Shown here piece after piece: positions 28,677 to 58,822 of a stretch of 64,000 nt of DNA. The stretch covers positions 77,180 to 141,179 of the forward strand of contig JACKPK010000004.1 in assembly GCA_024233595.1 (NCBI GenBank). The letters are read 5' to 3'. Numbering within the stretch: position 1 is the stretch's first letter; each line of letters opens with the position of its first letter. The position numbers and the translations under genes were made by a program. The notes under the pieces were generated by a model. The model had not been told where the DNA came from and did no database searches. It worked only from the letters and a program-made list of their open reading frames with translations. This DNA is from Deltaproteobacteria bacterium. Lineage in GTDB: Bacteria; UBA10199; JADGCS01.

Positions 28677-28683
28677 GTCCTGG

Positions 28684-31600: not shown

Positions 31601-32292
31601 GTGAATTGGCGATTCGCAACAACCTCGCTGATTTAGAAATGAACGCTGACCTGAGTCTTTTTGGCACAATCGATAAACCCGATCTTGTCGGCCAATTGGA
31701 CTTTTTAGGCGGGCAGATTCATGCTTTTGGTTTGGATTTTGATCGCGCCAAAGGCTTTGCTCAGTTTAAAAGAAACAAAGGTTATGATGCTAACGTGAAC
31801 CTCACCGCTGTTAAAGAAATTCAAGAATACAACATCACAGCGCAAATCGAAGGACCATCTGATAACTTGCGCTTGCGTTTGAGTTCATCACCGGCGTTGA
31901 GCCACCGTGAAATCTTAGCGGTGATTTTTTACGGCCAAACTCCAGATCAGTTAAACGATGCCGAACGCCGCAATTTCACACAAACTGTTGCGATCAGTCA
32001 GCTAGCCAGTATTTTATCAGACCCCTTCACCGATTTATCCGGCTTAGATGTTCTAGAAGTCAATAGCCGTCAGCAAACATCAACGCAAACCGTGCAGCGT
32101 TTGTCTGTTGGCAAAAGACTCTCGGACCGTTTTGAAGTTTCGTTCACAACAGACATTGGCATCACCAACCCGGAACGCGCTTTTGAATTGCGTTACCAAA
32201 TTTTTGATAATTTTTATTTGATTGCGGCAAAAGACATTGTGGGGCGTAATCGTTATCGCTTTGATGTGAATCTGCGTTTTTCAACTTACTGA
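28684..32292 (+). CDS. tamB: Translocation and assembly module protein TamB-like (DUF490 C-terminus)
   Basis: About 1200 aa with an N-terminal TM anchor (LFWFLVFTILFLIGLGVLNYI), a long beta-rich body, and a C-terminus ...RLSVGKRLSDRFEVSFTTDIG...FELRYQIFDNFYLIAAKD...RYRFDVNLRFSTY. The ATG at 28684 is preferred over the ORF-track TTG at 28663. Confidence 0.8.
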   Translation: MTENDKKNPKEPKPKKIKTKRVRPFYGLKLFWFLVFTILFLIGLGVLNYIINHKKYQDDAVAFLEKRTQSEIAFSDLSFNLFFGEISGSNISFHSNKTNLNLELKKFRMRYNPLYLWIARFKLTEIYAEEFFLDTSDLIKNQSSTAAANKTEKKKADLSQLPPFLKRIKLKKAEIQNFVWKQKPEQTLTINAVSLKSRFGSSFYSSPLDLDIHNTRFSSKKVDLFLDKGTISGFFVFDFSQPRILDESSLEIKMSIEGFLLSIIKKIKPWITDEGWDQDMNPTLARFFPNGIPEDRSYMFLEEARLSLKKAKNQISLEQLLVNLGGSKLMGQANWNLGSKNFQLSLNTKDPLPISKLPLGQAKIRKAFGGFRVALTAKGKVTDLQSNNINTDIALAMVDNLVTPEKGDLTAVIKGQIQNSRLTTDQLKISLADGLIEGNGSMNLLKGHTTVSFKAKDFDAETIVRLFSTIRVPAKVDGTGILEGKVNNPTIKINMSSEDAGYEFLHFGPAAGTLVLQNKDLILDVATSKNTMGESKLMLKSYNVFSPFEQKMELSSSFVDLKIKELLNSTSMSGLIGGDFNLKRKQGVSNANGAFLAKDFSFFEEKIGDVAFEALIKDKHADIKNLKIDVAFPEETITTPLALSFDFDDYGYLVQGTPIKGLKLKGKFLKAKREELKLDITANNLSLNVFSSIMPIKPIRSQFDGQIALDYNIYDPWLSSFTAKIKDLRLFTSDLNYEVLKPTTLVYKNQTLTFSRFELSSGQGKFLLDGALGRNANSNLKVKGKIDFAPFNDVNPFISESDTPIDVDVTLKGDILKPDVFGHIDFDKDTIKFRQAPVDLEEISGRVNFKGKRLSTEALSLFFDDAPTTVQGWIETNYEMVTAANLNIEGKEMPLRPIDGMVMLSDANLSLKGSGGNLTLSGPVNIVDGVYTRNFSVTNFVIKPVADLYEEESDTFAGLPLSTRYNLRIKNTGELAIRNNLADLEMNADLSLFGTIDKPDLVGQLDFLGGQIHAFGLDFDRAKGFAQFKRNKGYDANVNLTAVKEIQEYNITAQIEGPSDNLRLRLSSSPALSHREILAVIFYGQTPDQLNDAERRNFTQTVAISQLASILSDPFTDLSGLDVLEVNSRQQTSTQTVQRLSVGKRLSDRFEVSFTTDIGITNPERAFELRYQIFDNFYLIAAKDIVGRNRYRFDVNLRFSTY

Positions 32293-34038
32293 CTAAGCAC
32301 TGGGTTGTGGCAATTCTTTTTCTTCGCTCACTTCTGGTGTTGGAGCTTCTGCCGCAGCGGTGGTTTCTTCTGCAGGCTCTTCTTCTGAAGCGGATTGTTC
32401 CTCGCCTGCTTCAGCTTCACTGAGCTCCTGAGGCATTTCATCAACAACCTCAGTCACATCATCAACCCGATCGCTTTGACCTTCTGGCTGCGCTAGCGCC
32501 GCAGCTTCTTTGGCTTTTTGTTGATCAATAAAATCACTCATGGTTCCGGTAAAGGCAGGAAGGAACACATGGAAGACCGCGCCATTGGACACGCTGGATT
32601 CAACAACAATTTTTCCGCCAAGCTGACGTAAACCTTCGCGCACCATGGCCAAACCAAGACCCATGGTTTTGATTTCATCTGACTTGGTTGTGAAGAACGG
32701 CTCAAAAATATCTTCTTTGGATTCATCGGGTATGCCTCTGCCTGTGTCTGAAATCACAAGCCAAACATACTGACCTTCGCGCAACATGCCCGTAAGATTT
32801 GATCCTTTGCCCACCGTGATGTTGCGCCCTTTGACACTAAACTCGCCACCATCCGGCATGGCTTCAAACGCATTGCGCGCCATATTGATGAGCATGTTCA
32901 AAAGAAAAGTCTTGGTGCCCACAACACCCCACAAACCTGGTGGTAATTTTTGTTGCAAAGTGATTCCCTTAGGAGCCAAACGCTCAATGAGCAAAAAGCC
33001 TTCCGCAATGACCTGATCCAAAACCACTTTGGTGGTTTTTTCGATGGTCAGTGGGTCAGGATAAGAAATGAGTTGTTCACAAACTTTTTTACCCTGCAAA
33101 GATGTTTTGTAAATCTCTTGATGATTCTCTTGCACTTCCTCAGCAGAGAGACTGCCTGTCATGAGCATTTGTAAAAAACCCAAAATCACATCCAAGCGAC
33201 CTTTTAAATCGCGAGCCACTTGCTTAGAGACCAAATCAAGATGAGCCGTACGATGCTGACGAATGATGTAGTTCTGCGCCTTAGAAAGGTCTTTGACCAT
33301 TTTGTTAAAGACACGAATCATTTTACCCATCTCATCACTTTGATTTTCTTCAAGCTGCACTTCTAAATGCCCTTCAGACGCTTCGCGAATGCCTTTGTGC
33401 AAGGCCTTCAGTGGTTTTGTGATGGAATTGATAAACCAAACAATAAAAATCAGAGTGAAGATTGCCACGACGGTCATGGCGGATAAAACCGAGGTCAGCA
33501 TTTTGGCAGCCACCTCTTCGTTTTCGCGGATCAAGATTTTATTTTTTTCCGAGAAATCAGTGTAAAGCGTAATTGTTTTTTGCGTGAGGGTTTCGATCAC
33601 CTCTTCAGCTTCTTTTGTGGTGCGCAATCGCAGCTGCATGGCCTGCTCTTGGTCATTCATTGTGTAGGTTTTGCGCACAGCACGATTGAGTTCCAATAAA
33701 CCTTTGTAATAGTTTTCGATCTCGACAGCTAAAATTTTAAACTCTTTGTCGATCTTGCCCTTTTTCAAAACACCAATGGTTTTTTCGATGTCTTCTTTAT
33801 TAAGATCCAAAAAAGTCACAACGGTTTGGTTGCCCGAAAAATAAAAACGATGCACCATCGCCACGTTCGAGATTTGGTAACGCAACTTCGCGACCTCTTC
33901 TAGGTAACGTGATTTGATAAAGTAGTTAATATTGGTATTGTTAACGTGTTTCACAAGCCAATAGGTGGACATCATGCCCACCACTGTCGACATAAAAACA
34001 AAACCAAAAGCCAGAATGAGTTTTTTCTTTAAAGTCAT
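32293..34038 (-). CDS. Membrane sensor histidine-kinase-like protein (HAMP + HATPase) with degenerate H-box
   Basis: Two TM segments, HAMP (ITKPLKALHKGIREASEGHLEVQLE...), N box NMARNAFEAM, G1 DTGRGIP, F box FEPFFTTK, G2 GLGLAMV. The H-box reads QVARDLKGRLDVILGFLQML, with Arg276 where the phospho-His is expected. An acidic tail of about 80 aa follows. Confidence 0.8.
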   Translation of the reverse strand: MTLKKKLILAFGFVFMSTVVGMMSTYWLVKHVNNTNINYFIKSRYLEEVAKLRYQISNVAMVHRFYFSGNQTVVTFLDLNKEDIEKTIGVLKKGKIDKEFKILAVEIENYYKGLLELNRAVRKTYTMNDQEQAMQLRLRTTKEAEEVIETLTQKTITLYTDFSEKNKILIRENEEVAAKMLTSVLSAMTVVAIFTLIFIVWFINSITKPLKALHKGIREASEGHLEVQLEENQSDEMGKMIRVFNKMVKDLSKAQNYIIRQHRTAHLDLVSKQVARDLKGRLDVILGFLQMLMTGSLSAEEVQENHQEIYKTSLQGKKVCEQLISYPDPLTIEKTTKVVLDQVIAEGFLLIERLAPKGITLQQKLPPGLWGVVGTKTFLLNMLINMARNAFEAMPDGGEFSVKGRNITVGKGSNLTGMLREGQYVWLVISDTGRGIPDESKEDIFEPFFTTKSDEIKTMGLGLAMVREGLRQLGGKIVVESSVSNGAVFHVFLPAFTGTMSDFIDQQKAKEAAALAQPEGQSDRVDDVTEVVDEMPQELSEAEAGEEQSASEEEPAEETTAAAEAPTPEVSEEKELPQPSA

Positions 34039-34119
34039 GCGCTCAACCAGTTATTCAAATCTTTATTTTGCCGATTAAATCAACGGATGACAATTGATTA
34101 ATAAAAATTTAACGAGAAC

Positions 34120-36888
34120 ATGGAGTTAGGATTGACTGTCAGAATCTCGAAAACGCCCCCGCCAAGCCCTGTTTTCCGCCTCAAAAAAACACAACTATTT
34201 GTTTTTATTATATTTATTTTAATATTTCCCATTGCAACCCAACCCGCTCTGAGCAACGACGAAATTCTGCTGCGTGAGATTCACATCACAACCCCGCAAA
34301 ACGAATTTGATACCAAAACTTGGGACAATCTTTTTCCATTTAAAAAAGGTGATCGAGTCAGCAAACAAAAACTCGAAGATCGCATCAGCGCCATCAATCA
34401 ACTCAATCTTTTTCAAACAATTGAATACCAACTCAAAGAGCTTGGGAAAAACACATACGAACTAGACGTAAAAATAGACCAAGCGCCTAAAGTTCGCGAC
34501 ATCAACGTCAAAGGCAACTATCCCTTTTTAGCAAAAGACATCCGACGTTTGGTGTCGATTCAATCCGGCGATGTTTTTGAAAAAAGCGAACTCAGAAAAT
34601 CTGAAACCATCATCACCGAGTACTTAGAAAAACACGGCTTTTACGGCTCCACAGTGTCTATTTCTAAAAGAAAACAATCAGACAAAGGTTACGTTGATCT
34701 ATTAGTCGATCTCGACAAAGGCAAAACTTATCGCGTTGGCGAAATCACTGTTAAAGGAAATCACTTTCTCAAAACAAATCGCATCAAAAATAAAATCTCT
34801 CGCTTTGGTAGATTTCGTATCGAACGTTTCAAAAAAGACATCAAAAAAATAAAAGAACTCTACCGTAAAAAAGGCTTTATCAAAGCGCGGGTCAAAACCG
34901 AAGATTTAGCCTACAATAGCAAAACCGAAAAAGTCGGCATCAGCATCCAAGTCCGAGAAAACCGCAAGCTCACCTTGTTCTTAAGCGGAGAAAGTCGCTT
35001 CTCGTTATCGCGCTTAAAACCCGTGATGGGCCTAGAAAAGCGTCGTTCATACGATCGTGTTGCCATTGCCAACGCAAAAAACAGACTCAAACGCTTTTAC
35101 CAACTCAAAGGTTACCCCAACGCGCAGATCAAATCCAAAATAGAAAAACCAGATGATCATCAAGTGCATGTTTATTTAGAGATCAATGCTGGAAAACGTG
35201 TTTTGCTCAAAGACATTCAATTTGATGGCAATGACGAAATCGGCAAACAAAAGCTACAAAAGAACATCGACTCTGTTGAGTCGGGGTTATTTTCGAACGA
35301 GCCTTTTAATCAACGCCAACTCATCAAAGACCAACTTAAATTAGCGGCCTATTACAAAGGCCAAGGTTTTTTTGATTCCGAAATCAAAACGCCTGAGGTC
35401 GAAAAAAATCATTTTGGAGATCAGGTCACTGTTTCTTTCCCAATTTCCGAAGGGCAACAGTACAGCATTGGCTCCATCACACTTGCTTCAGAAGACAAAC
35501 TCGATACTGAGAAATTACTCAAAGTCAGCAAATTAAAAACCAAAGACGATTACAAAGCCGAAGACATTCAGGAAGCCACTTTAAAATTAAAAGAACACTT
35601 TGAAAAACAAGGACACGCCTACGTCGAGATCAAAAACGAAAACATTGTGAACCGTGAACAAAAAACCGTGTCTGTGATTTTTCACATTCAAAAAGGACCC
35701 ATTGTCCGTGTTCGCAAAATCCTTCTCAAAGGCAATTTCCAAACCAAATCAAAAATCATCCGACGCCATCTTAAACTCAAAGAAGGCGAGCTTTTTGTTT
35801 TTCAAGACATGCTAGACGGGCAACTCAACTTAAGACGCTTGGGTGTTTTTAGCTCAGTACGCGCCACACCTTTGGGATTTGATCAAAGGCAAACCGAGTT
35901 GGATGTTTTAGTCAGTGTGATTGAACGTAAACCAGTTGTGGTCGAACTATCCGCAGGCTTTGACAGTCGCAACCTAGCTACCGGCGAATTGAATTTCACA
36001 AAGTATAATTTGTTTGGATCAGCACGACAGCTATCAACGCGCGTCATTGGTGGTTTGCAATACAGCCGCGCTGAGCTTACTTTTTACTCGCCGCGTATTT
36101 TTGGCGCCAGTTGGAACTTAGCCAATCAGTATTTTGGCCAATACGAAAACACCACCAACTTTAACGCCTACAGCTATGGCGGATTTATCAACACGCTCAA
36201 AAACTTTGGTCCGCATTGGACATTTGGATTCAAAGAGCAAATCACACGCACTGAAGTTTTAGAAAGTGAATCAAACGTAGCCGCTCTTGGTAACGCCTTA
36301 TTTGACAACACTTTTAACGAATTTCAAGTCAGCTTGATTTTTGATGCGCGCGATAACTTTTCTGACCCACAAAAAGGGGTTTACATTTTAGCGCGTAACG
36401 AATGGAACACCGACCTCTCTGACGTCACCAATAACTTTAACACAGTCGAGCTCAACGCAAGCCACTACCTAGGCTTTTTAAAACGCTTCACGTTAGTGAA
36501 CACCTTACGCTATGGCCACACCTTTGGCCTGGGAACAACACCGCGTATTCCCGTTAACAAATTATTTTTCTTAGGTGGCTCAGACACTTTGCGAGGTTTT
36601 ACGGAAGATGGCGTGAACCCTTCTGGTGGTACGGTGCAATTGATCTACAATGGCGAATTGCAGTTTGCTTTTACCGAGTCAGTCAAGGTGGCCGGTTTTT
36701 TTGATGCCGGAGTTTTGCAAAATGACATCCAAGCGATTCAAAAAAGTGATGTCCGCGAATCAGCCGGCATGGGCTTGCGCTACTTCACCCCCATTGGCCC
36801 CCTGCGCTTGGATTGGGGATTTATTCTCGATAGAAAATCCGGCGAGCCACAAAGCCGCCTGCACTTTTCCTTTGGTTATTTTTTCTAA
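34120..36888 (+). CDS. bamA: Outer membrane protein assembly factor BamA (Omp85 family)
   Basis: Signal peptide, repeated POTRA-like units (VRDINVKGNY..., GEITVKGNHFL..., KDIQFDGNDEI..., RKILLKGNFQTK...), and a C-terminal beta-barrel ending ...RLHFSFGYFF. Confidence 0.85.
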   Translation: MELGLTVRISKTPPPSPVFRLKKTQLFVFIIFILIFPIATQPALSNDEILLREIHITTPQNEFDTKTWDNLFPFKKGDRVSKQKLEDRISAINQLNLFQTIEYQLKELGKNTYELDVKIDQAPKVRDINVKGNYPFLAKDIRRLVSIQSGDVFEKSELRKSETIITEYLEKHGFYGSTVSISKRKQSDKGYVDLLVDLDKGKTYRVGEITVKGNHFLKTNRIKNKISRFGRFRIERFKKDIKKIKELYRKKGFIKARVKTEDLAYNSKTEKVGISIQVRENRKLTLFLSGESRFSLSRLKPVMGLEKRRSYDRVAIANAKNRLKRFYQLKGYPNAQIKSKIEKPDDHQVHVYLEINAGKRVLLKDIQFDGNDEIGKQKLQKNIDSVESGLFSNEPFNQRQLIKDQLKLAAYYKGQGFFDSEIKTPEVEKNHFGDQVTVSFPISEGQQYSIGSITLASEDKLDTEKLLKVSKLKTKDDYKAEDIQEATLKLKEHFEKQGHAYVEIKNENIVNREQKTVSVIFHIQKGPIVRVRKILLKGNFQTKSKIIRRHLKLKEGELFVFQDMLDGQLNLRRLGVFSSVRATPLGFDQRQTELDVLVSVIERKPVVVELSAGFDSRNLATGELNFTKYNLFGSARQLSTRVIGGLQYSRAELTFYSPRIFGASWNLANQYFGQYENTTNFNAYSYGGFINTLKNFGPHWTFGFKEQITRTEVLESESNVAALGNALFDNTFNEFQVSLIFDARDNFSDPQKGVYILARNEWNTDLSDVTNNFNTVELNASHYLGFLKRFTLVNTLRYGHTFGLGTTPRIPVNKLFFLGGSDTLRGFTEDGVNPSGGTVQLIYNGELQFAFTESVKVAGFFDAGVLQNDIQAIQKSDVRESAGMGLRYFTPIGPLRLDWGFILDRKSGEPQSRLHFSFGYFF

Positions 36889-43229: not shown

Positions 43230-43412
43230 AAATATAATGATAAATATTTGTTTTTACTTATTTATTTTGAATTCCTTGTTCAGACCTATTTGCCACCACT
43301 TTTATTTTTTTGGCGTATTCAAGATCTGTGGTTTTTTTTAAAAAAAATACGACTGACCTAGCAACATTTAAATCAATTGTTCGATAACAAAGCTAGCAAT
43401 TGGAGAATTTTT

Positions 43413-44375
43413 ATGAGTGAAATCAACGCAAGCAAACCAGAACCCAGCATGGATTTTGGCACCATCAACGTCGAATTTTCAACAGCACAAAGCCTGGTCA
43501 ACGCCAAAACACGCGAACAAGTTGCTGAATCAATCGACCACATGGGTCGCGTCAAAGAAAACGCGATCATCCTGACTGATGCCAACAACAATGGTTTTTT
43601 TGATACAGACGATTATGCTCAAATTGGTCAAGCAGATGGCAAAACCAAGCTTGCTGTCTACAAAAAAAGTGGTCATGACATCTTAGGCATGGTCGGTTTT
43701 TTTAATGAAATCAAAAACGGCGACCAAGAAATCGCTTATTTTTCTAAACCGATTCCTGCAGAGCAAGTAGGCGAAGACAACATGGTTGAAGCGGGCATTT
43801 ATATTTATGCCAAGCACGACTCACGTCAATTCAATTTAGAAATTGGACGCACCTCTGAATTCTGGCGTAGCATGAAATTTTTTCAAGTCGGCAAAGTCAA
43901 AGAAGTTTATAGCGATGGTAAATTAGCTGACAGTTTGTACAGCGATTCCGAAGACCGTCGTATTTGGGATCAAGGAAGCGACGTGATCCTCGTCAACGAT
44001 GTGGAAAAACGCATTCAAGAAATTAAATGTCCCGAAATCACGTCTAACAAAAAAACTGAAATGCAAGAGCAAGCCGATCAGCAAAGAAAATGCATGGCCG
44101 AAAAAATTGAGCTAATGGGTGAAGCACAAATGGCTTACGGCGAGTATCTAGAAACTCTTTCGCAACCTATTGGCGACTTCCAAAACAGCACAGAACTCTT
44201 AGAAGTTTTTAATCGTCTCGAGAATGCTGAAAAAGTTGAAGACATTCCTAATCCTGCAGAACTTCTGTCTTTAGCTAAAGCAGCTCAATCTCACCGACAA
44301 TCAGAAGCTTTTAAAAATTATTTGAGCAAAGTTCTTAAAATAGACGCTAAAAAGACCGACGATTCAGAAAAATAA
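43413..44375 (+). CDS. Hypothetical cytoplasmic protein
   Basis: 320-aa ORF with no signal peptide. GGAG lies 8 nt upstream of ATG 43413, and a strong terminator follows. No recognisable motif. Confidence 0.55.
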   Translation: MSEINASKPEPSMDFGTINVEFSTAQSLVNAKTREQVAESIDHMGRVKENAIILTDANNNGFFDTDDYAQIGQADGKTKLAVYKKSGHDILGMVGFFNEIKNGDQEIAYFSKPIPAEQVGEDNMVEAGIYIYAKHDSRQFNLEIGRTSEFWRSMKFFQVGKVKEVYSDGKLADSLYSDSEDRRIWDQGSDVILVNDVEKRIQEIKCPEITSNKKTEMQEQADQQRKCMAEKIELMGEAQMAYGEYLETLSQPIGDFQNSTELLEVFNRLENAEKVEDIPNPAELLSLAKAAQSHRQSEAFKNYLSKVLKIDAKKTDDSEK

Positions 44376-46226: not shown

Positions 46227-46242
46227 TGGAACAGCTTTTGCA
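46227..46242 (+). promoter_or_regulatory. sigma54-type -24/-12 promoter candidate
   Basis: TGGAACA-gctt-TTGCA. GG (46228-46229) and GC (46240-46241) are separated by exactly 10 nt, as in TGGCACG-N4-TTGCW. It lies 15 nt upstream of ATG 46256. Confidence 0.4.
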
Positions 46243-46255
46243 CCAATTGGGAGGC

Positions 46256-49200
46256 ATGAAAAACATCACATCCCAACACCAGTTTCTTTTAGAATCACTG
46301 CTCTTTGCTTGCTGCTTGATCATCCTGACCATGGTCTCGTTTGCATCTCATCCTGTTTTGGCGCAAAGCGGAGGCATACCTGATCAGGTTTGTGTCGACA
46401 TTGACCGTGATGGCGTGACCACCTGTGATGGTGACTGTGATGATCGTAACACTGATGTTGCTCCCAATCGCCCTGAACTTTGTGATGGAGTCGATAACGA
46501 TTGTGATGGCCAAATCGACGAAGAATTATGGCAGCCCTTGCCAAACCAACAAGGCGCCTGCGCAGCCAACGGACAGATTTGTCAAAACGGATCATGGGTG
46601 AATGCGCCCAATAACCAAGAACCTGGTCCCGAAAACTGTGACAACATTGACAACGACTGCGATGGCGAAGTTGATCGCATTGTACGCAACTCGGCAAACC
46701 AACAAGGCAAATGCCAAAACAACCGCGACATTTGTCTGAATGGTGTTTGGGAACCTTTTATGGTGGGCTATTACACGCCCGAGAACCAAGATTTGTGTAA
46801 CGGACAAGATGACGATTGCGATGGCGAAATTGATGAAGACGATTCTATTTTTACTTACAATGCCGAGAGTGGACGCTGTGAAGCACAATGCCCAGAAGGA
46901 CAAATTTTTAACATGCAAGCCAAGGCCTGTGAACCTATTTGTCAACAAGGCCAAATTTTTAATCGCGAAACAAAACGTTGCGATGTGCAATGCCCTGCTG
47001 ATCAATTCTTAAGCGAAGAAACCGGGCGTTGTGAAAAACGTTGCGCTCAAGGTGAAATCATCAACCCGGAGACAGGACAATGCCAAGCCCCCTGCCCCCC
47101 AGGCCATTTCTTTGATGGCTTAAGTGGACAGTGTCAATCAGCTTGCGAAGTGTTCGAAGGCTTTAATGCTGACCAAAATCGTTGCGAAGCCAAGTGCGAT
47201 ATTGACCAACGTTGGGATGCCGAAGAGCTTCTTTGTGTGAACCTTTGCGAAGACGGACAGCTTTTTAATCCTTTAAAAAGCGAATGCCAAGACCTGCCAG
47301 CTTGCGCAAGCGATGAACTCACCGCTCATAAAGTCAGCTGTATCTCTGTTGATGCGAATGTGACTTGTATTTCTGCTCACGATGAAACGCACCGCACAGT
47401 GACTTTTAATAGCAATGTGGCTGATGTGGTTGTTTCTAACTCACATCTTTATGTGCTTTTGCAAAATCAAAAAATCTTCAGACTCTCTCTGACTGATGCG
47501 TTCACAATTGATAGCGCACAATTGCTTATTGAAGGCGAATCTTTGGAGGGCGCACAAGAGCTAGCGGTAAACTCAAAAGAAGTGCTCTTTGTGATGTACG
47601 CAAACGCCATCAAGCAACTCACAGACCAAGAGATGTATGTCATTTACGAAACACAGGTGGAACAGATCACAAGCATTGCAGCCATTGATGATCTCTACGC
47701 TATGGTTGGTGGACAGCTGAACAAAATCGATCCGGTGACAAAGTCAGCAACAAACCTGCACGACTACCGTGTTCTGATTGATGAAAAACTTGTCGATCAA
47801 ACTGAATCGAGCAAACTATTCCCTGCGCGCTTCAGCTTACAAAAGCACATGGTTCTTGCTTCTGGCGCCCACATGGATTTTTACAATTTAGAATCCAATC
47901 AAAACCACCACGCTCGCTTTGAAGACTACGGTATTAACACCATGAGCGTGACCGTGCACAACGAAACCAATCGTATTTTGGCTTACAACCCTTACTTGCC
48001 TGACATCATCTTGATCTCAAAAGAGGGACGTGTGCTGAACGAAACAAAAATTCTAGATGTTTTGCCTGAGCCTGTTGCCCCAAGTAGTTTAAACAGCACC
48101 ACCGCTTGTTTTGCGCCTGAAGTGATCAATGAAGAAACAGGTGACGAAGAAAGCGGCGATGGCACTCCTGAACAACAGGATCCTGAGCAAAATAATAACG
48201 ATGAGGTCACCCAAGACCAAGAAGAGCCAAATAGCGACAGCCCAAGCGATGACCAATCGGGCAATGACGATGGCTCACTCATTGGTGATAACAGACCTGA
48301 AGACCCGACTGTCACAACCATCACTTGTCGTGACGGCTCCGTTGTAGCCGACATCGGTGACTGCAGTTGTGTGGAAACCTGTGATGATCCCAAAGTCATC
48401 GAAGAAAAATTTTCGGACGCTCAAGTGAATCCTCCTGAAGAAGACGACACCGTGAAGAAAATCTCGGACACAATGTCGGATAGCGATAGCGGCAGCGGCG
48501 ATGATGTTAAGAAAATTTCGGATGTGACCGATGCATCCGACTCCTCAGAAAGGTCAGCAGATAGCTTAGACAGCACCCTTTCTGATTCTGGTGAACGTGT
48601 TTGTCCATTAAGTGGCAAAGCCCCTGTACGCAGCCTTTGCTTGGTGAATAAAAAATCCAATCGCATTGAGTGCTACAAAGACAAAGAGCTTGTTCGTAAA
48701 TTTGAAACCCAAGATGTTTCAAACTTGCTCACCACAAACTCAGGCAAACTGGTAGCGATGACTCGCGATCGCATTCTTGTTCATGACATCATGGACGACA
48801 ACGAAAAAGAACCCGATTCTATTTTAGAAAAACTCGATAGCTCCGAAACCATTCGCCCCAAACAAATTCAATTGGCGGATGACCAAGAGCAAATCATTGT
48901 TCTGCATCAAGATAAGTCTGGTTCTTCAAAACAAATCACCATTGATATGACCCGTAAAACCATCACAAACGAGAGTCCACAAATCACCGAAAAGGTTGAT
49001 GCAGCGCTTTTGGATCAAAGGGATGAACGCATTTACACCATCAGCAAAGATGCCGGTTCGATTTCGGTTTACGACACGCACACAGGCGAGCAGTTAGAAA
49101 AAATCTTATTGTCAGAGGAAGAAAAGATCTCCTTACAAGAAAAAGACGGATCTATTAAGACTCTCTCTATAGAAGATGACGAACTGCAAGTTTACTGGGA

Positions 49201-49777
49201 AGACAATTCGCGCACAAAAATCATCTTACAAGATGACGAACAGGCACACATCGACGAAGACGAAAGCACAAAACTCTTCATCCCAGAACTGGGTTCCGGA
49301 GAGTATGTGGAGATCGAAAGAAAATTCACTGACCTTGCTGACGAGGAATCAGAAGACAGTATTCAAAAAATTGATTTTAAAGACGATGACCTTGCTGATC
49401 AAGAAACGCTCAGCACTCAAGTCAACGCGCGTGTGTCGCTGGCCACCAAGCAAGCCAGCAGCTCTAGCGATCTGCCTGATGACTTGTCTGACGATGCCAT
49501 TGGCGCGTCTGTTTACTGTCCTGTTTGCGGCACAGGCCAATCCTCTTACTTGGCGGCAGGTTCTCCGGAAGAAGGCGACAGCAGCATTCCTTCTTCGGAA
49601 TTGGGCGGCTCCAGTTCTGGTGGATCAGCAAGCGGCATGAACATGCAAATTGGTGGCGGCGCTTGTAGCTTGAACACAGCCAGCGCGCTTTCGACCAAGA
49701 CTTCGCTTGTGCCCTTCCTGGTGAGCTTTTTCATCGCCTTTGTGACTTTGGTACGACGACAAAAGACGAGTGTTTAA
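46256..49777 (+). CDS. Large secreted Cys-rich repeat protein with MopE-type metal-binding motifs and Cys-containing C-terminal sorting-like tail
   Basis: Signal peptide (…LIILTMVSFASHPVLA). Three CDGxDNDCDGxxDE-type motifs (CDGVDNDCDGQIDEE, CDNIDNDCDGEVDR, CNGQDDDCDGEIDED). Eight 17-aa C-x3-C repeats. Acidic low-complexity linkers. C-terminus NMQIGGGACSLNT...LVPFLVSFFIAFVTLVRRQK. Confidence 0.75.
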   Translation: MKNITSQHQFLLESLLFACCLIILTMVSFASHPVLAQSGGIPDQVCVDIDRDGVTTCDGDCDDRNTDVAPNRPELCDGVDNDCDGQIDEELWQPLPNQQGACAANGQICQNGSWVNAPNNQEPGPENCDNIDNDCDGEVDRIVRNSANQQGKCQNNRDICLNGVWEPFMVGYYTPENQDLCNGQDDDCDGEIDEDDSIFTYNAESGRCEAQCPEGQIFNMQAKACEPICQQGQIFNRETKRCDVQCPADQFLSEETGRCEKRCAQGEIINPETGQCQAPCPPGHFFDGLSGQCQSACEVFEGFNADQNRCEAKCDIDQRWDAEELLCVNLCEDGQLFNPLKSECQDLPACASDELTAHKVSCISVDANVTCISAHDETHRTVTFNSNVADVVVSNSHLYVLLQNQKIFRLSLTDAFTIDSAQLLIEGESLEGAQELAVNSKEVLFVMYANAIKQLTDQEMYVIYETQVEQITSIAAIDDLYAMVGGQLNKIDPVTKSATNLHDYRVLIDEKLVDQTESSKLFPARFSLQKHMVLASGAHMDFYNLESNQNHHARFEDYGINTMSVTVHNETNRILAYNPYLPDIILISKEGRVLNETKILDVLPEPVAPSSLNSTTACFAPEVINEETGDEESGDGTPEQQDPEQNNNDEVTQDQEEPNSDSPSDDQSGNDDGSLIGDNRPEDPTVTTITCRDGSVVADIGDCSCVETCDDPKVIEEKFSDAQVNPPEEDDTVKKISDTMSDSDSGSGDDVKKISDVTDASDSSERSADSLDSTLSDSGERVCPLSGKAPVRSLCLVNKKSNRIECYKDKELVRKFETQDVSNLLTTNSGKLVAMTRDRILVHDIMDDNEKEPDSILEKLDSSETIRPKQIQLADDQEQIIVLHQDKSGSSKQITIDMTRKTITNESPQITEKVDAALLDQRDERIYTISKDAGSISVYDTHTGEQLEKILLSEEEKISLQEKDGSIKTLSIEDDELQVYWEDNSRTKIILQDDEQAHIDEDESTKLFIPELGSGEYVEIERKFTDLADEESEDSIQKIDFKDDDLADQETLSTQVNARVSLATKQASSSSDLPDDLSDDAIGASVYCPVCGTGQSSYLAAGSPEEGDSSIPSSELGGSSSGGSASGMNMQIGGGACSLNTASALSTKTSLVPFLVSFFIAFVTLVRRQKTSV
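46877..47284 (+). repeat. Eight tandem 51-nt (17-aa) C-x3-C-x12 coding repeats
   Basis: CEAQCPEGQIFNMQAKA / CEPICQQGQIFNRETKR / CDVQCPADQFLSEETGR / CEKRCAQGEIINPETGQ / CQAPCPPGHFFDGLSGQ / CQSACEVFEGFNADQNR / CEAKCDIDQRWDAEELL / CVNLCEDGQLFNPLKSE. The period is exact, with no indels. Confidence 0.85.
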
Positions 49778-49950
49778 GAATAAAAACCCGAGAATGCATA
49801 AATGCATTTAGTTTGAGAACTCGAACACATGCCCCATACCCTTGTGGCTTGCGGACCAAATACAACAGGTCTTTTGGGGAAATTTTTCCTCAGCATGATC
49901 CCACTCATATTTTTTATTAAATAATATCAAATGCTTACAAACACAAAACC

Positions 49951-49966
49951 TGGCACAACTCCTGCA
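49951..49966 (+). promoter_or_regulatory. sigma54-type -24/-12 promoter candidate
   Basis: TGGCACA-actc-CTGCA. GG (49952-49953) and GC (49964-49965) are separated by exactly 10 nt. It lies 12 nt upstream of ATG 49977 and 30 nt upstream of ATG 49995. Confidence 0.45.
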
Positions 49967-49976
49967 TATATATAAG

Positions 49977-51572
49977 ATGGAAAGGACCTTCGTCATGTTT
50001 AAAGGTGTGTTTACAAGTCTCAGTATTTTGATTTTGCTCTTAAGCCAGCAGGCTTTTGCGGCAACAAGCTGCCCCGATGGCAGCGAGGCCGAGTCTCGCC
50101 TTTGTGTGATCAATCGCTCCGAGATTGATCCAGGTTTGGTTTGTTATGACAAAGACCTTAACCCCAAGATCTTCTTTGCTGGTTACCGCAACGTTCATGC
50201 TGTGATCGATAATGGCTCTGCCGAACACTTTACTTTTGTTGTGGGCGACGACATTTACTTGGTGAACAAATCAACTCTTGAAATCACCAACCTGCCTTTC
50301 TCTTCTTTTGATTGGAGTGACGAAAGCGAAGCGCCGCAAATGTTTCTTGTGCGTGATCACTTGCAATCAGGTGGTGGCGACGCGCTTTTTCTTGCCGACT
50401 TGATTCGCGGCAGTGAAATCAAAACAGAATTGATTCTTGTGGACGGTGATAGCTCGAGCATCCGCACCTTATACAGCGAGCTCGATGGCGCCGAGTGGAT
50501 CGCCCAGTCTCCGGTTGATGACACTTACGGTTTGGTTGGTGGCAGCTTTGGCATCAAAAAGCTTGTGCGTTCCGAAAGCTCTTACAGTTTAGAAAATGTC
50601 ATCGCCATTAGCGACCTCCCTGAAGGCTTTGGCACAATCAAAAACACCAGCTCTGGTATTTTTGCCGATGACGGTTCGCAATTGATTTTCACAGTCACCA
50701 ATAGCGAAAGCGAAACCACGGCTATTTACACTTACGACATTGATTCCGCTCTTCTCACAGAAGTGGTTGGCGACAATATCCCTTACATGATCCCTCGTGG
50801 CGGCTTGCAAGCCACACCCGAGGACCCTTACTTGCTTGCTAGCGCCGGCACAAAAATGGATCTTTACACAAGTCTTGGCTCTTTTGCTTCAGACGAATTC
50901 CCAATTTCTTACACCGACCTTTCCCCCACGGCTTACACAAGCGATTCCCTGCAAGACACAGGTTCCTTTGCTTTTGTGGAAATGTGCGATGGCACCCCAC
51001 AAAAAGGACCCTACACAGATGAAGCTTGCGATGGCATCGATAACGATGGCGATGTCAGCATTGATGAAAACCTCACCAAAGCTTGTGACGAAAGTTTATA
51101 CAAACCAGGCACCTCCACTTGTGAAAATGGCAATTGGATCGGTTGTGAATACATTTGTGCCGTTGAAGAAAACGAAGTGCTGAATCCTGTGACCAAAGAG
51201 TGCGAATGCGAACAAGGTTACGAGCGCGATGACGAAAACAACTGCATCGCCATCCCCAGCAAAGAACCAGAAGAAGAAACCCCTGTTGAAGAAACAGACG
51301 AGCCGGAAGAAGTCATCGTGCCTGCGAACGAACCCGACACCTCATCGGACAACACGCCCGATGACAACAATGAAGCTCTCGAAGAATCTGACTCACAACA
51401 ACCAGACCCACAAGTGGCCCCCACACCCAACACGAATGTGAAGATGTCCGGCGGCGCTTTGGGCTGCCAACTCAGCACCCAAGAAAACCCAGCCGCCCAA
51501 GGCTACGCGGTTTTGGCCCTGATGCTGGGCTTCTTTGGACTTTTGTTCAGACTGCGTCGCCACGCAAAATAA
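49977..51572 (+). CDS. Secreted protein, smaller paralog-like partner with one MopE-like motif and the same C-terminal sorting-like tail
   Basis: Signal peptide (MFKGVFTSLSILILLLSQQAFA|A), CDGIDNDGDVSIDEN plus EGF-like CECEQGYERDDENNC, and a Pro/Glu/Asp-rich linker. C-terminus NVKMSGGALGCQLST...YAVLALMLGFFGLLFRLRRHAK. An alternative start at ATG 49995 has GGAAAGGA 8 nt upstream. Confidence 0.7.
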   Translation: MERTFVMFKGVFTSLSILILLLSQQAFAATSCPDGSEAESRLCVINRSEIDPGLVCYDKDLNPKIFFAGYRNVHAVIDNGSAEHFTFVVGDDIYLVNKSTLEITNLPFSSFDWSDESEAPQMFLVRDHLQSGGGDALFLADLIRGSEIKTELILVDGDSSSIRTLYSELDGAEWIAQSPVDDTYGLVGGSFGIKKLVRSESSYSLENVIAISDLPEGFGTIKNTSSGIFADDGSQLIFTVTNSESETTAIYTYDIDSALLTEVVGDNIPYMIPRGGLQATPEDPYLLASAGTKMDLYTSLGSFASDEFPISYTDLSPTAYTSDSLQDTGSFAFVEMCDGTPQKGPYTDEACDGIDNDGDVSIDENLTKACDESLYKPGTSTCENGNWIGCEYICAVEENEVLNPVTKECECEQGYERDDENNCIAIPSKEPEEETPVEETDEPEEVIVPANEPDTSSDNTPDDNNEALEESDSQQPDPQVAPTPNTNVKMSGGALGCQLSTQENPAAQGYAVLALMLGFFGLLFRLRRHAK

Positions 51573-52292: not shown

Positions 52293-53615
52293 ATGAGCTT
52301 TGACGAATTAAAAAAACAAGCCTCGGTTCCCGACGCCGAAGATAACCTTGCTGCCTTCGAAAAACACATGACTTGCGATTGGCAACAAGACTCCGCTCAA
52401 AATCTAGCGCGCATTTTTTTTCATTCTCGCTTTCTCTCGCGTTTTTTATTGAACCACCCACAAAGTGCAAAAACAATTCTAGAAAACAAAGACATTCAAA
52501 AAGAATTCAGTCCCTCAGAGTACCTCAACAGCGCCAATGCATTTTTACAACAATCCCCAGACTGGAAACAAAACCTCAGGCTTTTTAAATACACGCAGCT
52601 GCTACGCCTGACCATTTTAGAAATCATCGGCACAAACAGCATTCAGGTTTACCGAGAACTTTCAACGCTCGCGCAAACCATTTGCCAACTCTGCTTTGAA
52701 AAAATCTGCTCACAGGTTTTAGAGCATGTGGGCGAAAACAAATTGCCTTGCGAAAGCGCTATTCTTGCCATGGGAAAACTAGGCGGTTTTGAACTCAACT
52801 ACAGTTCCGATATTGATCTCATTGGCTTTTACCAAAATGAAGGCTCATTAAAGAATACCAACCACCATGAATTTTTTGTAAAATTATTTTTGGAATTTGG
52901 AAAAGAGCTAAACCGCAGAGACCCCATTGGTTTTTTGTACCGAGCCGATTGGGACTTGCGTCCCGAAGGCATTGGCGGCACGCTGGCAAACTCTTTTGTC
53001 GCCATGGAAACCTATTACGAAAGTTTTGGCGAAGAATGGGAACGCCAAGCCTACATCAAAGCAAGACCTTTGATCGAAACCAAAAATATTGGTTCACAAT
53101 TTTTAGAAACGCTAACGCCCTTTGTTTACCGAAAATCTTTTGATGAAAAAACCATCAAAAACATCTGGGCCATGAAATCGCGCATTCAAAAAGAAAACGC
53201 CGCGCGTTCATCAAAAGCCATCAACATCAAGCTGGATGCCGGAGGCATTCGCGACATTGAATTTTTTGTACAAGGCTTTCAACTGCTTTACGGTGGCCAG
53301 TACTTAGACCTCAGATCCACCAACACCTTAATCGCTCTCAACACCTTAAGCATCAAAAAACTCATCAGCAAATCAGAACAAGAACAATTACAAACCGCCT
53401 ATTTATTTTTAAGACGACTAGAAAGCATGATTCAAATGGAAGAAGAAGCACAGCGACACAGCGTAAGCGAAGAAGCTTCTCACCAACTGGCTCTTGCTAA
53501 AAGAATGGGATTTACAGGTTCTCGTGACGAGATCATTTCTAAACTCAACGAGGCCCTGCTTTTAACACGCACACAAGCAAGACAGATTTTTGAAAAGTAC
53601 TTTAAGCAAGAATGA
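52293..53615 (+). CDS. glnE: GlnE-like nucleotidyltransferase, N-terminal (adenylyl-removing-type) half as a separate gene
   Basis: GKLGGFELNYSSDIDLIGFY (G-x-x-G...D-x-D NTase motif of GlnE) and YRADWDLRPEG (GlnE R-x-D-x-R-L-R-P context). About 440 aa, which is half the size of canonical GlnE. Confidence 0.75.
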   Translation: MSFDELKKQASVPDAEDNLAAFEKHMTCDWQQDSAQNLARIFFHSRFLSRFLLNHPQSAKTILENKDIQKEFSPSEYLNSANAFLQQSPDWKQNLRLFKYTQLLRLTILEIIGTNSIQVYRELSTLAQTICQLCFEKICSQVLEHVGENKLPCESAILAMGKLGGFELNYSSDIDLIGFYQNEGSLKNTNHHEFFVKLFLEFGKELNRRDPIGFLYRADWDLRPEGIGGTLANSFVAMETYYESFGEEWERQAYIKARPLIETKNIGSQFLETLTPFVYRKSFDEKTIKNIWAMKSRIQKENAARSSKAINIKLDAGGIRDIEFFVQGFQLLYGGQYLDLRSTNTLIALNTLSIKKLISKSEQEQLQTAYLFLRRLESMIQMEEEAQRHSVSEEASHQLALAKRMGFTGSRDEIISKLNEALLLTRTQARQIFEKYFKQE

Positions 53616-54868
53616 CAAACGAAAATCAAAAAACATCTACCCCTAACAAAGATCAGTTCACAGAATTTAAAAAAGACCCTCGTTTAGAAAGCGCGATCTA
53701 CAAACAAGGTGCCTTCAAAACAAAAAAGAAGCAGCATCAGGATTTAATCTCGCAATGGGCTAAGCTCGATATAGAAGAATTTGCAGATGCCATTCGCCAA
53801 TACAAATACAAAACCAAACAAGAGCTCATCACTCAGCTAGAAAACAAGCCCTTTGAAAACCGCCAAAAAATTTTAGAAAGCCTTTCTGATACCGCTGAAC
53901 TTTTGACCATGGCCAGCTTAGAACGCGCTGAACAATTGCAAATCGAAAAATTTGGTGAGCCTCTGTATTTAAGTTCCTACAAGCAAATGCAACGCTCTCA
54001 TTTGGCATTAGTGGCCATGGGCAAACTTGCCACTCGCGAAATCAATTACTTTTCGGACCTGGACGTGATTTTTATTTTTTCACACCGTGGCGAAACCGCT
54101 GGCACAAAAGAACCCGGCAACCAAATCAAAAACACACAGTTCTTCATTCGCGTGGCACAACGCTTTATTTCGATGATGACACTCCTGACCAGTCGCGGCC
54201 GCTGTTATCAAATCGACACCGAACTCAGGCCCTCGGGCAATCAAGGCACCTTGGTCACCAGTTTTGATTATTTTTTAGATCACCAAATGAATAAAGCCGC
54301 TTATTGGGAACGCATGGCACTGACTCGTTCTCGTGCCATTAGCCAGGACTGTGAATTTGAAGAAGCCCTCACCAAACAAATCGATGAACTGGTTTATCAC
54401 AGACCTTTGCCGCAAGACTTTGCCGTGGTCATGAACGACATCCGGCAAAAGGTGTTGCGTGAGCGTGCAAAAACCAAAGACGATTACTTTGATCTAAAAC
54501 TTGGTCAAGGTGGCATCATGGACATTGAGTTCACCTTGCAACTCATACAACTCAAATTCGGACGACTTTACCCACAACTCAGACGCAAAAGCGTTTTTGA
54601 AATCCTTAAGGCGTTAAAAGAGCATTCTCTTCTGAGCAACACAGAACTGAAAAACCTCACACAGGCCTATGTTTTATTCAGAAGCATCGAAAGCAAACTG
54701 CATCTTGAAAAGCGTCGTAGCTTCCATGTGATCAGCCTTAAAGAAAGTGATAACACGAATTTAGCAGAACAATTGCAGCTAAGCGAAAAGCAACTGATTT
54801 CTGATATTAAAGATGCTAGAAGCACCGTACAGAGCTTATACAGGAAATTTTATGAAAGCATTTCATGA
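53612..54868 (+). CDS. glnE: GlnE-like nucleotidyltransferase, C-terminal (adenylyltransferase-type) half as a separate gene
   Basis: GKLATREINYFSDLDVIFIF and CYQIDTELRPSGNQGTLVTS (GlnE ...D-x-R-L-R-P-S-G..G-x-L-V). The start overlaps the previous stop (ATGA at 53612-53615). Confidence 0.75.
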   Translation: MTNENQKTSTPNKDQFTEFKKDPRLESAIYKQGAFKTKKKQHQDLISQWAKLDIEEFADAIRQYKYKTKQELITQLENKPFENRQKILESLSDTAELLTMASLERAEQLQIEKFGEPLYLSSYKQMQRSHLALVAMGKLATREINYFSDLDVIFIFSHRGETAGTKEPGNQIKNTQFFIRVAQRFISMMTLLTSRGRCYQIDTELRPSGNQGTLVTSFDYFLDHQMNKAAYWERMALTRSRAISQDCEFEEALTKQIDELVYHRPLPQDFAVVMNDIRQKVLRERAKTKDDYFDLKLGQGGIMDIEFTLQLIQLKFGRLYPQLRRKSVFEILKALKEHSLLSNTELKNLTQAYVLFRSIESKLHLEKRRSFHVISLKESDNTNLAEQLQLSEKQLISDIKDARSTVQSLYRKFYESIS

Positions 54869-58576: not shown

Positions 58577-58658
58577 GCGAGCGTGGCGGAACTGGTATAC
58601 GCACTAGGCTTAGAACCTAGCGCCGCAAGGATTGAGGGTTCGACTCCCTCCGCTCGCA
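58577..58658 (+). tRNA. tRNA-Leu (anticodon UAG)
   Basis: Manual fold. Acceptor GCGAGCG/CGCTCGC, D arm GCG...CGC, anticodon stem CTAGG/CCTAG with loop CTTAGAA (UAG). Long variable arm, T arm GAGGG-TTCGACT-CCCTC, discriminator A. CCA is not encoded. Confidence 0.9.
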
Positions 58659-58661
58659 CTA

Positions 58662-58783
58662 CATACTATTTACTCGGGCAAAAGCCCGAGTAAAAAAGGC
58701 ACGGCCACTTGAAGGCCGTTGCATATACTATTTACTCGGGCAAAAACCTGGGTAAACACGGAACGGCCACTTGAAGGCCGTTG
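58662..58783. repeat. Tandem duplication (60 + 62 nt) of a two-hairpin unit between tRNA-Leu and tig
   Basis: Unit 1: catactatttACTCGGGCaaaaGCCCGAGTaaaaaaggcACGGCCacttgaaGGCCGTtg. Unit 2 (58722-58783) is a diverged copy. A partial third start (catctatactt) follows. Confidence 0.8.
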
Positions 58784-58822
58784 CATCTATACTTATATAC
58801 CCAAATACCGAAAGCAAAAAGC

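What the first reader, a model, noticed from the sequence alone, without database searches (positions are those of the whole stretch)
46256..51572. Two adjacent secreted Cys-rich proteins share a Cys-containing C-terminal sorting-like tail that fits no canonical class by eye
Seen in sequence:
- Both genes are on the same strand and encode proteins with N-terminal signal peptides.
- Both carry MopE/PF11617-type motifs: CDGVDNDCDGQIDEE, CDNIDNDCDGEVDR and CNGQDDDCDGEIDED in the 1173-aa protein, and CDGIDNDGDVSIDEN in the 531-aa protein.
- Both have acidic low-complexity linkers.
- Both have a nearly superimposable C-terminus: N-[MV]-[QK]-[IM]-[GS]-G-G-A-x(0,2)-C-[SQ]-L-[NS]-T. This is NMQIGGGACSLNT at 49640-49678 and NVKMSGGALGCQLST at 51435-51479.
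- The motif is followed by 10-13 polar residues, a hydrophobic helix of about 20 residues, a basic cluster (RRQK / RLRRHAK), and the stop.

Established knowledge: a motif, TM helix and Arg cluster in that order is the architecture of exosortase, rhombosortase and MYXO-CTERM type protein-sorting signals. MopE-type repeats and MYXO-CTERM co-occur in Myxococcota-like lineages.

Inference: this is a sorting or lipidation signal variant. The Cys lies well upstream of the helix rather than abutting it, and the GG-A...C core is intermediate between GlyGly-CTERM and MYXO-CTERM. No candidate processing enzyme (CPBP/myxosortase, rhombosortase or exosortase) lies in this window. If the motif defines a regulon-sized substrate family, the sorting system may be undescribed.
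Basis: partly seen in the sequence, partly recalled or inferred. Interest (0 to 1): 0.75.

Follow-up and report, generated by a model that had tools for sequence, protein, structure and literature searches.

The report
Cys-containing C-terminal sorting-like tails
Two neighbouring, related secreted proteins of an uncultured bacterium end in a cysteine motif, a membrane helix and a basic cluster; this looks like a diverged local form of the known MYXO-CTERM-type surface-anchoring tag, but it occurs in only these two proteins, so it is a modest curiosity rather than evidence of a new sorting system.

Summary
Two same-strand ORFs (46256-49777, 1173 aa; 49977-51572, 531 aa) have signal peptides, Cys-rich MopE-type modules and polar linkers. 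Each ends in a single small-residue-flanked Cys, 12-13 polar residues, a 15-16 residue helix and a basic cluster. The pre-helix similarity beats chance (p about 0.002-0.004), but the proteins are paralogs, so it is probably inherited.

Neither tail matches any curated sorting-signal model in NCBIfam. A control MYXO-CTERM tail scored 26 bits (cutoff 20). Of 39 MYXO-CTERM-like tails on MopE proteins, 31 matched the model.

The features called unusual are not distinctive. Single-Cys tags with the Cys about 10 residues before the helix are common in that class. The window tails sit at its long edge (Cys to first basic residue 27 and 29, against 21-27).

An exhaustive HMMER search of 1.84 billion proteins found no other protein with this tail. 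A metagenome scan and a synteny check found none either. The rest of the genome could not be reached, so family size and the enzyme remain untested.

Best reading: a diverged, lineage-specific Cys-type (MYXO-CTERM-like) tag on two orphan surface proteins (confidence 0.5). The main rival is a plain membrane anchor. Interest is low to moderate.

The parts
46256..49777 (+). Gene A (H7A33_04505), 1173 aa. It has a signal peptide, 3 MopE motifs, eight 17-residue Cys repeats, two beta-rich orphan regions, polar linkers and a C-terminal tail. An alternative TTG start at 46238 gives 1179 aa.
46415..46856 (+). MopE-type (PF11617) metal-binding-like motifs x3 in A (CDGVDNDCDGQID, CDNIDNDCDGEVD, CNGQDDDCDGEID)
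   Evidence: Pfam 58.5 bits, 3 stretches; regex positions 76, 128 and 181
49640..49678 (+). Tail A signature motif NMQIGGGACSLNT with the single tail Cys (residue 1137)
49706..49753 (+). Tail A hydrophobic helix LVPFLVSFFIAFVTLV, followed by RRQK-TSV and the stop (to 49777)
49977..51572 (+). Gene B (H7A33_04510), 531 aa (525 aa in NCBI). It has a signal peptide, a beta-rich orphan domain, one degenerate MopE-like motif, a Cys-rich module, an acidic/Pro-rich linker and a C-terminal tail.
51435..51479 (+). Tail B signature motif NVKMSGGALGCQLST with the single tail Cys (residue 497)
51504..51548 (+). Tail B hydrophobic helix YAVLALMLGFFGLLF, followed by RLRRHAK and the stop
   Evidence: AF2 helix 505-530

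Best explanation
A and B are paralogous, lineage-restricted, Sec-exported Cys-rich (MopE-type) envelope proteins. Their C-termini carry a diverged, lineage-specific form of the Cys-containing tripartite sorting signal, of which MYXO-CTERM is the type example.

Proposed mechanism, by analogy and not shown here:
1. The signal peptide drives export.
2. The C-terminal helix holds the protein in the inner membrane, with the basic cluster in the cytoplasm.
3. The single Cys (preceded by Ala in A and Gly in B) is lipid-modified.
4. A CPBP-family intramembrane protease (myxosortase-like), encoded elsewhere in the genome, removes the helix.
5. The lipid-anchored protein is moved to the cell surface.

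What is shown: the architecture, the shared motif, the type of passenger protein, and the failure to match the curated models. What is inferred: every processing step, and the existence of the enzyme.
For: - The tripartite layout sits at the extreme C-terminus of both proteins. It follows a disordered polar linker and pairs with an N-terminal signal peptide.
- The pre-helix motif is conserved between the paralogs beyond chance (p about 0.002-0.004). The Cys lies 36 and 34 residues from the end, while the linkers upstream have diverged.
- The passenger class fits. 40 of the 122 proteins on hand carry a C-terminal helix plus a basic cluster; that count includes A, B and P0002. Of the 39 Cys-type tails taken from them as the reference set, 31 hit TIGR03901.2 at E <= 0.1.
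- Tail B aligns along its full length (GCQ...RRR) to a profile of those 39 tails at 11.8 bits. That is inside the leave-one-out range of 9.0-60.2, and only 13 of 500 upstream-only shuffles reach it. Tail B also has a faint match to the TraA C-terminus.
- The geometry is at the edge of the class: Cys to first basic residue is 27 (B) and 29 (A), against 21-25 typically and 27 in P0002, which passes the model.
- Haft 2023 (10.1101/2023.06.07.544157) says MYXO-CTERM is short and highly divergent, and that lineage-specific forms co-evolve with the enzyme and need species-specific models. He also says myxosortase is not encoded next to its substrates.
- Guo, Haft and Wall 2025 (PMC11980579) describe a Cys-dependent cleavage model and a disordered region next to the tag.
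Against: - Neither tail matches TIGR03901.2, TIGR03382 or any other CTERM model, even at E <= 10.
- Tail A's motif is not recognised by the custom profile. It scores 5.3 bits from the helix and RR alone, and 486 of 500 upstream shuffles do as well.
- The profile-profile comparison aligns only 13 columns (helix end plus RR), not the Cys motif.
- Tail A has a Pro at the edge of its helix and a Lys just before it. MYXO-CTERM helices are described as free of Pro and charged residues.
- Only two carriers are known, and they are paralogs, so the shared motif may simply be inherited.
- No myxosortase, lipid transferase or type II secretion gene could be looked for outside the 64 kb window.
- The phylum is unresolved. 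The nearest GlnE relatives share only 39-47% identity and carry mixed labels.
Confidence: 0.5

Rival explanations
1. The tail is a plain membrane anchor. A and B would be type I bitopic inner-membrane proteins whose C-terminal helix and positive-inside cluster are retained. The juxtamembrane GGA..C.L.T motif would be a leftover of common ancestry, with no role in sorting.
For: - Only two carriers exist, and they are paralogs.
- There is no match to any sorting-signal model.
- hhalign aligns only the helix and RR.
- Tail A scores no better than its own upstream shuffles against the canonical profile.
Against: - The motif is conserved while the adjacent linkers have diverged beyond alignment.
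- A single Cys flanked by a small residue sits at the same distance from the end in both proteins.
- The design (signal peptide, disordered linker, then Cys, helix and Arg cluster within the last ~37 residues) and the MopE passenger class are those of known sorted proteins.
Confidence: 0.27
2. The tail is a new Cys-type sorting signal with its own, undescribed processing enzyme. That enzyme would be neither a myxosortase, a rhombosortase nor an exosortase, and it would serve a larger substrate family in this uncultured lineage.
For: - No curated CTERM model matches.
- The motif (GGA-x0-2-C-x-L-x-T) and the longer spacer differ from the GCGC logo.
- The lineage is deep-branching, with its closest GlnE relative at 47% identity.
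Against: - No other protein among 1.84 billion representatives carries a similar tail at E <= 0.001.
- None was found in metagenome contigs or in syntenic loci of relatives.
- No candidate enzyme lies nearby.
- The class is known to diverge by lineage, which explains the model misses more simply. 8 of 39 ordinary-looking tails also miss TIGR03901 at E <= 0.1.
Confidence: 0.12
3. The tail is a GlyGly-CTERM variant cleaved by a rhombosortase, or a JDVT-CTERM-like dedicated single-target system.
For: - A GG dipeptide is present upstream of the Cys.
- Each tail has a single Cys, as in JDVT-CTERM.
- The single-Cys tail of P0024 scores about equally on JDVT-CTERM and MYXO-CTERM, so the two models overlap.
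Against: - There are no hits to TIGR03501 or NF033191.
- The GG lies about 18-20 residues before the helix rather than abutting it.
- There is no DP motif before a Leu-rich helix (describes that logo).
- JDVT targets sit next to their MrtJ protease, and no CPBP or rhomboid gene is in the window.
Confidence: 0.04

Closest known systems
MYXO-CTERM sorting signal (NCBIfam TIGR03901.2 / TIGR03382), processed by the myxosortases MrtX, MrtC and MrtP (CPBP family)
   Same: - Position at the extreme C-terminus.
- A Cys in a short signature motif, preceded by a small residue.
- Roughly 10 polar residues, then a transmembrane helix, then an Arg-rich cluster.
- An N-terminal signal peptide and a disordered linker before the tag.
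- Cys-rich MopE-type passenger proteins.
- No sorting enzyme encoded next to the substrates.
   Different: - No score on the curated models, where the cutoff is 20 bits.
- A single Cys in GGAC / GGALGC rather than GCGC.
- A longer Cys-to-basic spacing (27-29 against 21-25).
- A Pro at the edge of tail A's helix.
- Only two carriers are known.
- The presence of the enzyme and membership of the taxon (Myxococcota or Bradymonadales) are untested.
JDVT-CTERM (NF033191) with MrtJ
   Same: A single invariant Cys, the tripartite layout, and the Cys-type class.
   Different: - No DP motif before a Leu-rich helix.
- No adjacent MrtJ/CPBP gene.
- Two targets rather than one.
- No HMM hit.
GlyGly-CTERM (TIGR03501) with rhombosortase
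   Same: The tripartite layout, a GG dipeptide, and secreted passenger proteins.
   Different: - The GG is about 18-20 residues upstream of the helix rather than at its start.
- No HMM hit.
- No rhomboid gene in the window.

Membership tests
MYXO-CTERM (TIGR03901.2) | Score at or above the curated cutoff (20 bits) on the family HMM | tested here: not met
   No hit for either isolated tail at E <= 10. Control tail P0002 scores 26 bits. 31 of 39 comparison tails hit at E <= 0.1.
MYXO-CTERM (TIGR03901.2) | [quoted passage not shown] | tested here: met
   The Cys lies 36 and 34 residues from the end, followed by a 15-16 residue helix and RRQK / RLRRHAK.
MYXO-CTERM (TIGR03901.2) | Transmembrane segment free of charged and Pro residues (Haft 2023) | tested here: inconclusive
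   Tail B meets this. Tail A has a Pro at the N-terminal edge of its helix (LVPFLV...).
MYXO-CTERM (TIGR03901.2) | Sequence similarity of the signature motif to canonical tags | tested here: inconclusive
   Against the custom 39-tail HMM, tail B scores 11.8 bits along its full length (13 of 500 shuffles reach this). Tail A scores 5.3 bits from the helix only. hhalign aligns only the helix end and RR.
MYXO-CTERM (TIGR03901.2) | Several to dozens of tagged proteins per genome (3-73) | not testable with these tools
   Only 64 kb of the MAG is available, and it holds 2 carriers. The exhaustive tail-profile search found no others at E <= 0.001. Siblings as diverged as A is from B would be missed.
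MYXO-CTERM (TIGR03901.2) | A cognate myxosortase (core model NF040914) in the same genome | not testable with these tools
   No CPBP domain is found in the window. None is expected next to substrates. The rest of the genome could not be reached.
MYXO-CTERM (TIGR03901.2) | Host in Myxococcota or Bradymonadales | tested here: inconclusive
   NCBI labels the MAG 'Deltaproteobacteria bacterium'. The nearest GlnE relatives share 39-47% identity and are labelled Deltaproteobacteria, Nitrospirales, unclassified or Myxococcota. GC is about 45%.
JDVT-CTERM (NF033191) | HMM score, a DP motif before a Leu-rich helix, and an adjacent MrtJ protease | tested here: not met
   No hit. The corresponding residues are NP and VP, not DP. 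No CPBP gene is in the window.
GlyGly-CTERM (TIGR03501) | HMM score, and a Gly-Gly motif immediately preceding the helix | tested here: not met
   No hit. The GG is about 18-20 residues upstream of the helix.
PEP-CTERM (TIGR02595) | A PEP motif before the helix, and the HMM score | tested here: not met
   No hit, and no PEP motif in either tail.
MopE / PF11617 repeat proteins | Pfam gathering score on PF11617 | tested here: met
   A scores 58.5 bits against a cutoff of 27, with 3 stretches. B does not reach the threshold: its single motif lacks the second Cys and is detectable only by alignment to A.

The most novel reading that the evidence does not exclude
The GGA-x(0,2)-C-x-L-x-T tail would be the first glimpse of a distinct Cys-type C-terminal sorting signal in a deep-branching, uncultured 'deltaproteobacterial' lineage. 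It would have its own co-evolved processing enzyme and a substrate family that sequence searches from only two diverged examples cannot yet recover.
Probability: 0.12. Interest if true: 0.6.

Novelty: new variant of a known kind. Interest (0 to 1): 0.3.

Why it matters
If the tails are processed, they extend Cys-type, myxosortase-style surface anchoring to a poorly sampled low-GC lineage. They would also show how far the tag can drift from the GCGC logo: a single Cys and a longer spacer. That would help when building lineage-specific models and when annotating MAG surface proteomes.

As it stands there are two paralogous orphan proteins, no demonstrated family and no enzyme. The practical value is limited to a flag for whoever analyses the complete genome.

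Tried and rejected
- Word-index protein search with the two-tail alignment: only 1 candidate was scored and there were no hits, because the tails are too short to seed.
- Full-length searches with B and with A. B matches only itself. A matches only through its MopE region, about 13% of its length. Both are orphans.
- Exhaustive HMMER search with the tail profile: A and B themselves, plus two spurious hits. P0123 is an unrelated repeat protein hit at its N-terminus. P0124 is hit at internal repeats and was not read.
- Metagenome scan with the tail patterns: 542 pattern matches, none confirmed.
- Genome-collection scan with the adjacent GlnE, for taxonomy and synteny. The MAG itself is absent, there are four distant relatives, and no tailed protein sits upstream of GlnE in any of them.
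- Looking for canonical-tail proteins from the same MAG through cluster names: none of the ten proteins examined is from H7A33.
- Extending beyond the window by exact look-ups of terminal genes failed. Only short Logan contigs are indexed for this organism.
- L001 is the same population, with 4 mismatches in 11 kb and none in the tails, so it gives no information on constraint.
- The AlphaFold2 single-sequence model of B has mean pLDDT 42, too poor for a fold search.
- Cys-parity argument: B's 12 ectodomain Cys leave the tail Cys unpaired, but A has 43 ectodomain Cys, so the argument was dropped.
- The GlyGly-CTERM, JDVT-CTERM and PEP-CTERM readings were rejected on motif position, missing HMM hits and missing neighbouring enzymes.
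Full report
**What is there**

The window has about 45% GC. It carries two adjacent + strand ORFs. A runs from 46256 to 49777 (1173 aa; an alternative TTG start at 46238 gives 1179 aa). B runs from 49977 to 51572 (531 aa). NCBI annotates them as the hypothetical proteins H7A33_04505 (MCP5464270.1) and H7A33_04510 (MCP5464271.1). They lie on a 170 kb contig of a MAG labelled 'Deltaproteobacteria bacterium'. An independent Logan assembly of another sequencing run contains the same A-B-GlnE stretch, with 4 mismatches in 11 kb.

Both proteins begin with a typical Sec signal peptide, judged by inspection.
- A has three MopE motifs (PF11617, 58.5 bits).
- A then has eight strict 17-residue Cys repeats, two beta-rich regions with no detectable homologues, and three polar low-complexity stretches.
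- B has a beta-rich orphan domain, one degenerate MopE-like motif that lacks the second Cys (no Pfam hit; alignable to A at E = 2e-5), a small Cys-rich module and an acidic/Pro-rich linker.

**The tails**

- Tail A: ...NMQIGGGA-C-SLNTASALSTKTS-LVPFLVSFFIAFVTLV-RRQK-TSV.
- Tail B: ...NVKMSGGALG-C-QLSTQENPAAQG-YAVLALMLGFFGLLF-RLRRHAK.

These are the only two ORFs in the window with a hydrophobic C-terminal helix, a basic end and a preceding Cys motif. Over 55 residues the tails are 23% identical. BLASTP scores the tail pair at only 20.8 bits, so 'nearly superimposable' is too strong. The pre-helix segments nonetheless align better than shuffled versions: the score is 40, and 38 and 79 of 20,000 shuffles reach it. 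The Cys lies 36 and 34 residues from the C-terminus. A and B are paralogs, since they share the MopE/Cys module, so this is best read as conservation of an inherited motif while the flanking linkers diverged.

**Test against known sorting signals**

The isolated tails were scanned against NCBIfam release 20. That library holds MYXO-CTERM (TIGR03901.2, TIGR03382), GlyGly-CTERM, PEP-CTERM, JDVT-CTERM, IPTL, GPS, PVV, PFE, Heimdall-CTERM and other such models. Neither tail produced a sorting-signal hit at E <= 10. The only trace was a 10-bit match of tail B to the C-terminus of TraA.

The method works on isolated tails. The tail of P0002, a VWA+MopE protein from another MAG, scored 26 bits on TIGR03901.2 against a cutoff of 20.

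For calibration I took the 122 proteins on hand, almost all of them MopE-protein relatives of A. Forty of them, counting A, B and P0002, end in a helix plus a basic cluster. From these I assembled 39 comparison tails of the form G-C-x-C or G-C-[SQ], then about 8-12 polar residues, a helix and RRR. Thirty-one of the 39 match TIGR03901.2 at E <= 0.1. Eight do not. A single-Cys example (P0024) scores 19.7 bits, just under the cutoff, and scores about the same on JDVT-CTERM.

This agrees with Haft's own statements. The roughly 34-residue domain is highly divergent, lineage-specific forms co-evolve with the enzyme, and accurate detection needs species-specific iterated models.

**How far from the class are the window tails?**

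- In the comparison tails the Cys-to-first-basic distance is 21-25 residues. It is 27 in P0002, 27 in B and 29 in A. Single-Cys motifs occur in 9 of the 39.
- A custom HMM built from the 39 tails gives leave-one-out scores of 9.0-60.2 bits, with a median of 32.
- Tail B scores 11.8 bits on that HMM, with a full-length alignment from GCQ to RRR. Only 13 of 500 versions with the upstream part shuffled reach this score.
- Tail A scores 5.3 bits, from the helix and RR only, and 486 of 500 upstream shuffles do as well.
- A profile-profile comparison of the two-tail alignment with the 39-tail alignment aligns only 13 columns, covering the helix end and the Arg cluster.

So membership by sequence is not established. 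B is borderline. A is recognisable only by its architecture.

The GG lies about 18-20 residues before the helix, whereas in GlyGly-CTERM it abuts the helix.

**Is there a family?**

- B has no homologue other than itself among 5.8 billion proteins.
- A has homologues only through its MopE region.
- A word-index search with the tails could not seed.
- The exhaustive HMMER search of 1.84 billion representatives with the two-tail profile returned A, B and two spurious hits.
- A metagenome scan with tail-derived patterns confirmed nothing.
- The genome collection does not contain this MAG. The nearest relatives by the adjacent GlnE gene are 39-47% identical and carry mixed labels (Deltaproteobacteria, Nitrospirales, unclassified, Myxococcota). 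None has a tailed protein in the syntenic position.

The caveat is sensitivity. Siblings as diverged from A and B as those two are from each other (about 20 bits) would fall below the roughly 38 bits needed for significance in that database. The rest of this genome could not be retrieved. The question of a regulon-sized family is therefore untested rather than refuted, but nothing positive supports it.

**Neighbourhood**

All window ORFs of at least 150 aa were scanned with Pfam. The neighbours are housekeeping genes of a diderm bacterium:
- TamB, BamA, the Mrp antiporter and an MFS transporter upstream;
- an RlpA-like DPBB protein, a split GlnE, GshA and a peroxiredoxin downstream;
- trigger factor, ClpP and ClpX further downstream.

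There is no CPBP, rhomboid or exosortase domain.

**Most likely mechanism**

By analogy with the MYXO-CTERM pathway, the proposed steps are these:
1. Sec export.
2. Temporary anchoring in the inner membrane by the C-terminal helix, with the basic cluster in the cytoplasm.
3. Lipid modification of the single Cys, which is preceded by Ala in A and Gly in B, as in lipobox-like and GC contexts.
4. Cleavage distal to the Cys by a CPBP-type intramembrane protease encoded elsewhere.
5. Transfer of the lipid-anchored, Cys-rich, adhesin-like protein to the cell surface, in Myxococcus through the type II secretion system.

Only the architecture and the motif conservation are shown here. Every processing step is inferred. 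I give this reading 0.5. The main rival is a retained type I membrane anchor whose motif is merely inherited (0.27). A truly new sorting system gets 0.12. GlyGly-CTERM or JDVT-like variants together get 0.04, because their defining features were tested and not met.

**Verdict**

The statement that the tails fit no curated class is correct at the level of HMM thresholds. The inference of an undescribed sorting system rests on two paralogous orphan proteins and on features that are ordinary for the Cys-type class. I file it as a probable diverged variant of a known kind, with modest interest (0.3). It is worth revisiting only when the whole genome can be scanned for a myxosortase-core protein and for further tails.

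Noticed in passing
window 6619-8695: About 2 kb with no ORF of 100 aa or more and lower GC (about 0.405 against about 0.45). It lies between a beta-CASP RNase gene and an HtrA/DegP-like protease gene. There is no Rfam family, tRNA or tandem repeat. Unexplained.
   Followed up: partly
window 52293-54868: GlnE (glutamine synthetase adenylyltransferase) is split into two adjacent, 4-bp-overlapping ORFs of 440 and 418 aa. Each has GlnE and GlnD_UR_UTase domains. The same split appears in relatives L004-L006, while L007 has one fused 1014-aa ORF.
   Followed up: partly
window about 46877-47290 (protein A residues 208-344): Eight units of a strict 17-residue Cys repeat (C-x3-C-x12, for example CPEGQIFNMQAKAC). 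It has no significant Pfam or PDB match and may be an undescribed disulfide-rich repeat.
   Followed up: partly
window 58663-58786: A 62-bp tandem duplication (2.0 copies, 90% matches) lies immediately after tRNA-Leu (58577-58659) and upstream of the tig-clpP-clpX genes. The consensus unit contains inverted-repeat sequences that could form hairpins; no fold was run.
   Followed up: no
window 43377-44375: A 332-aa ORF (TTG start) just upstream of the MFS transporter has no Pfam hit. It was not examined further.
   Followed up: no
window 28663-36888: A TamB-like gene (28663-32292) and a BamA gene with six matched POTRA stretches (34120-36888) flank an opposite-strand HAMP histidine kinase (32293-34038). 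This is an outer-membrane biogenesis cluster, and it confirms a diderm envelope.
   Followed up: no
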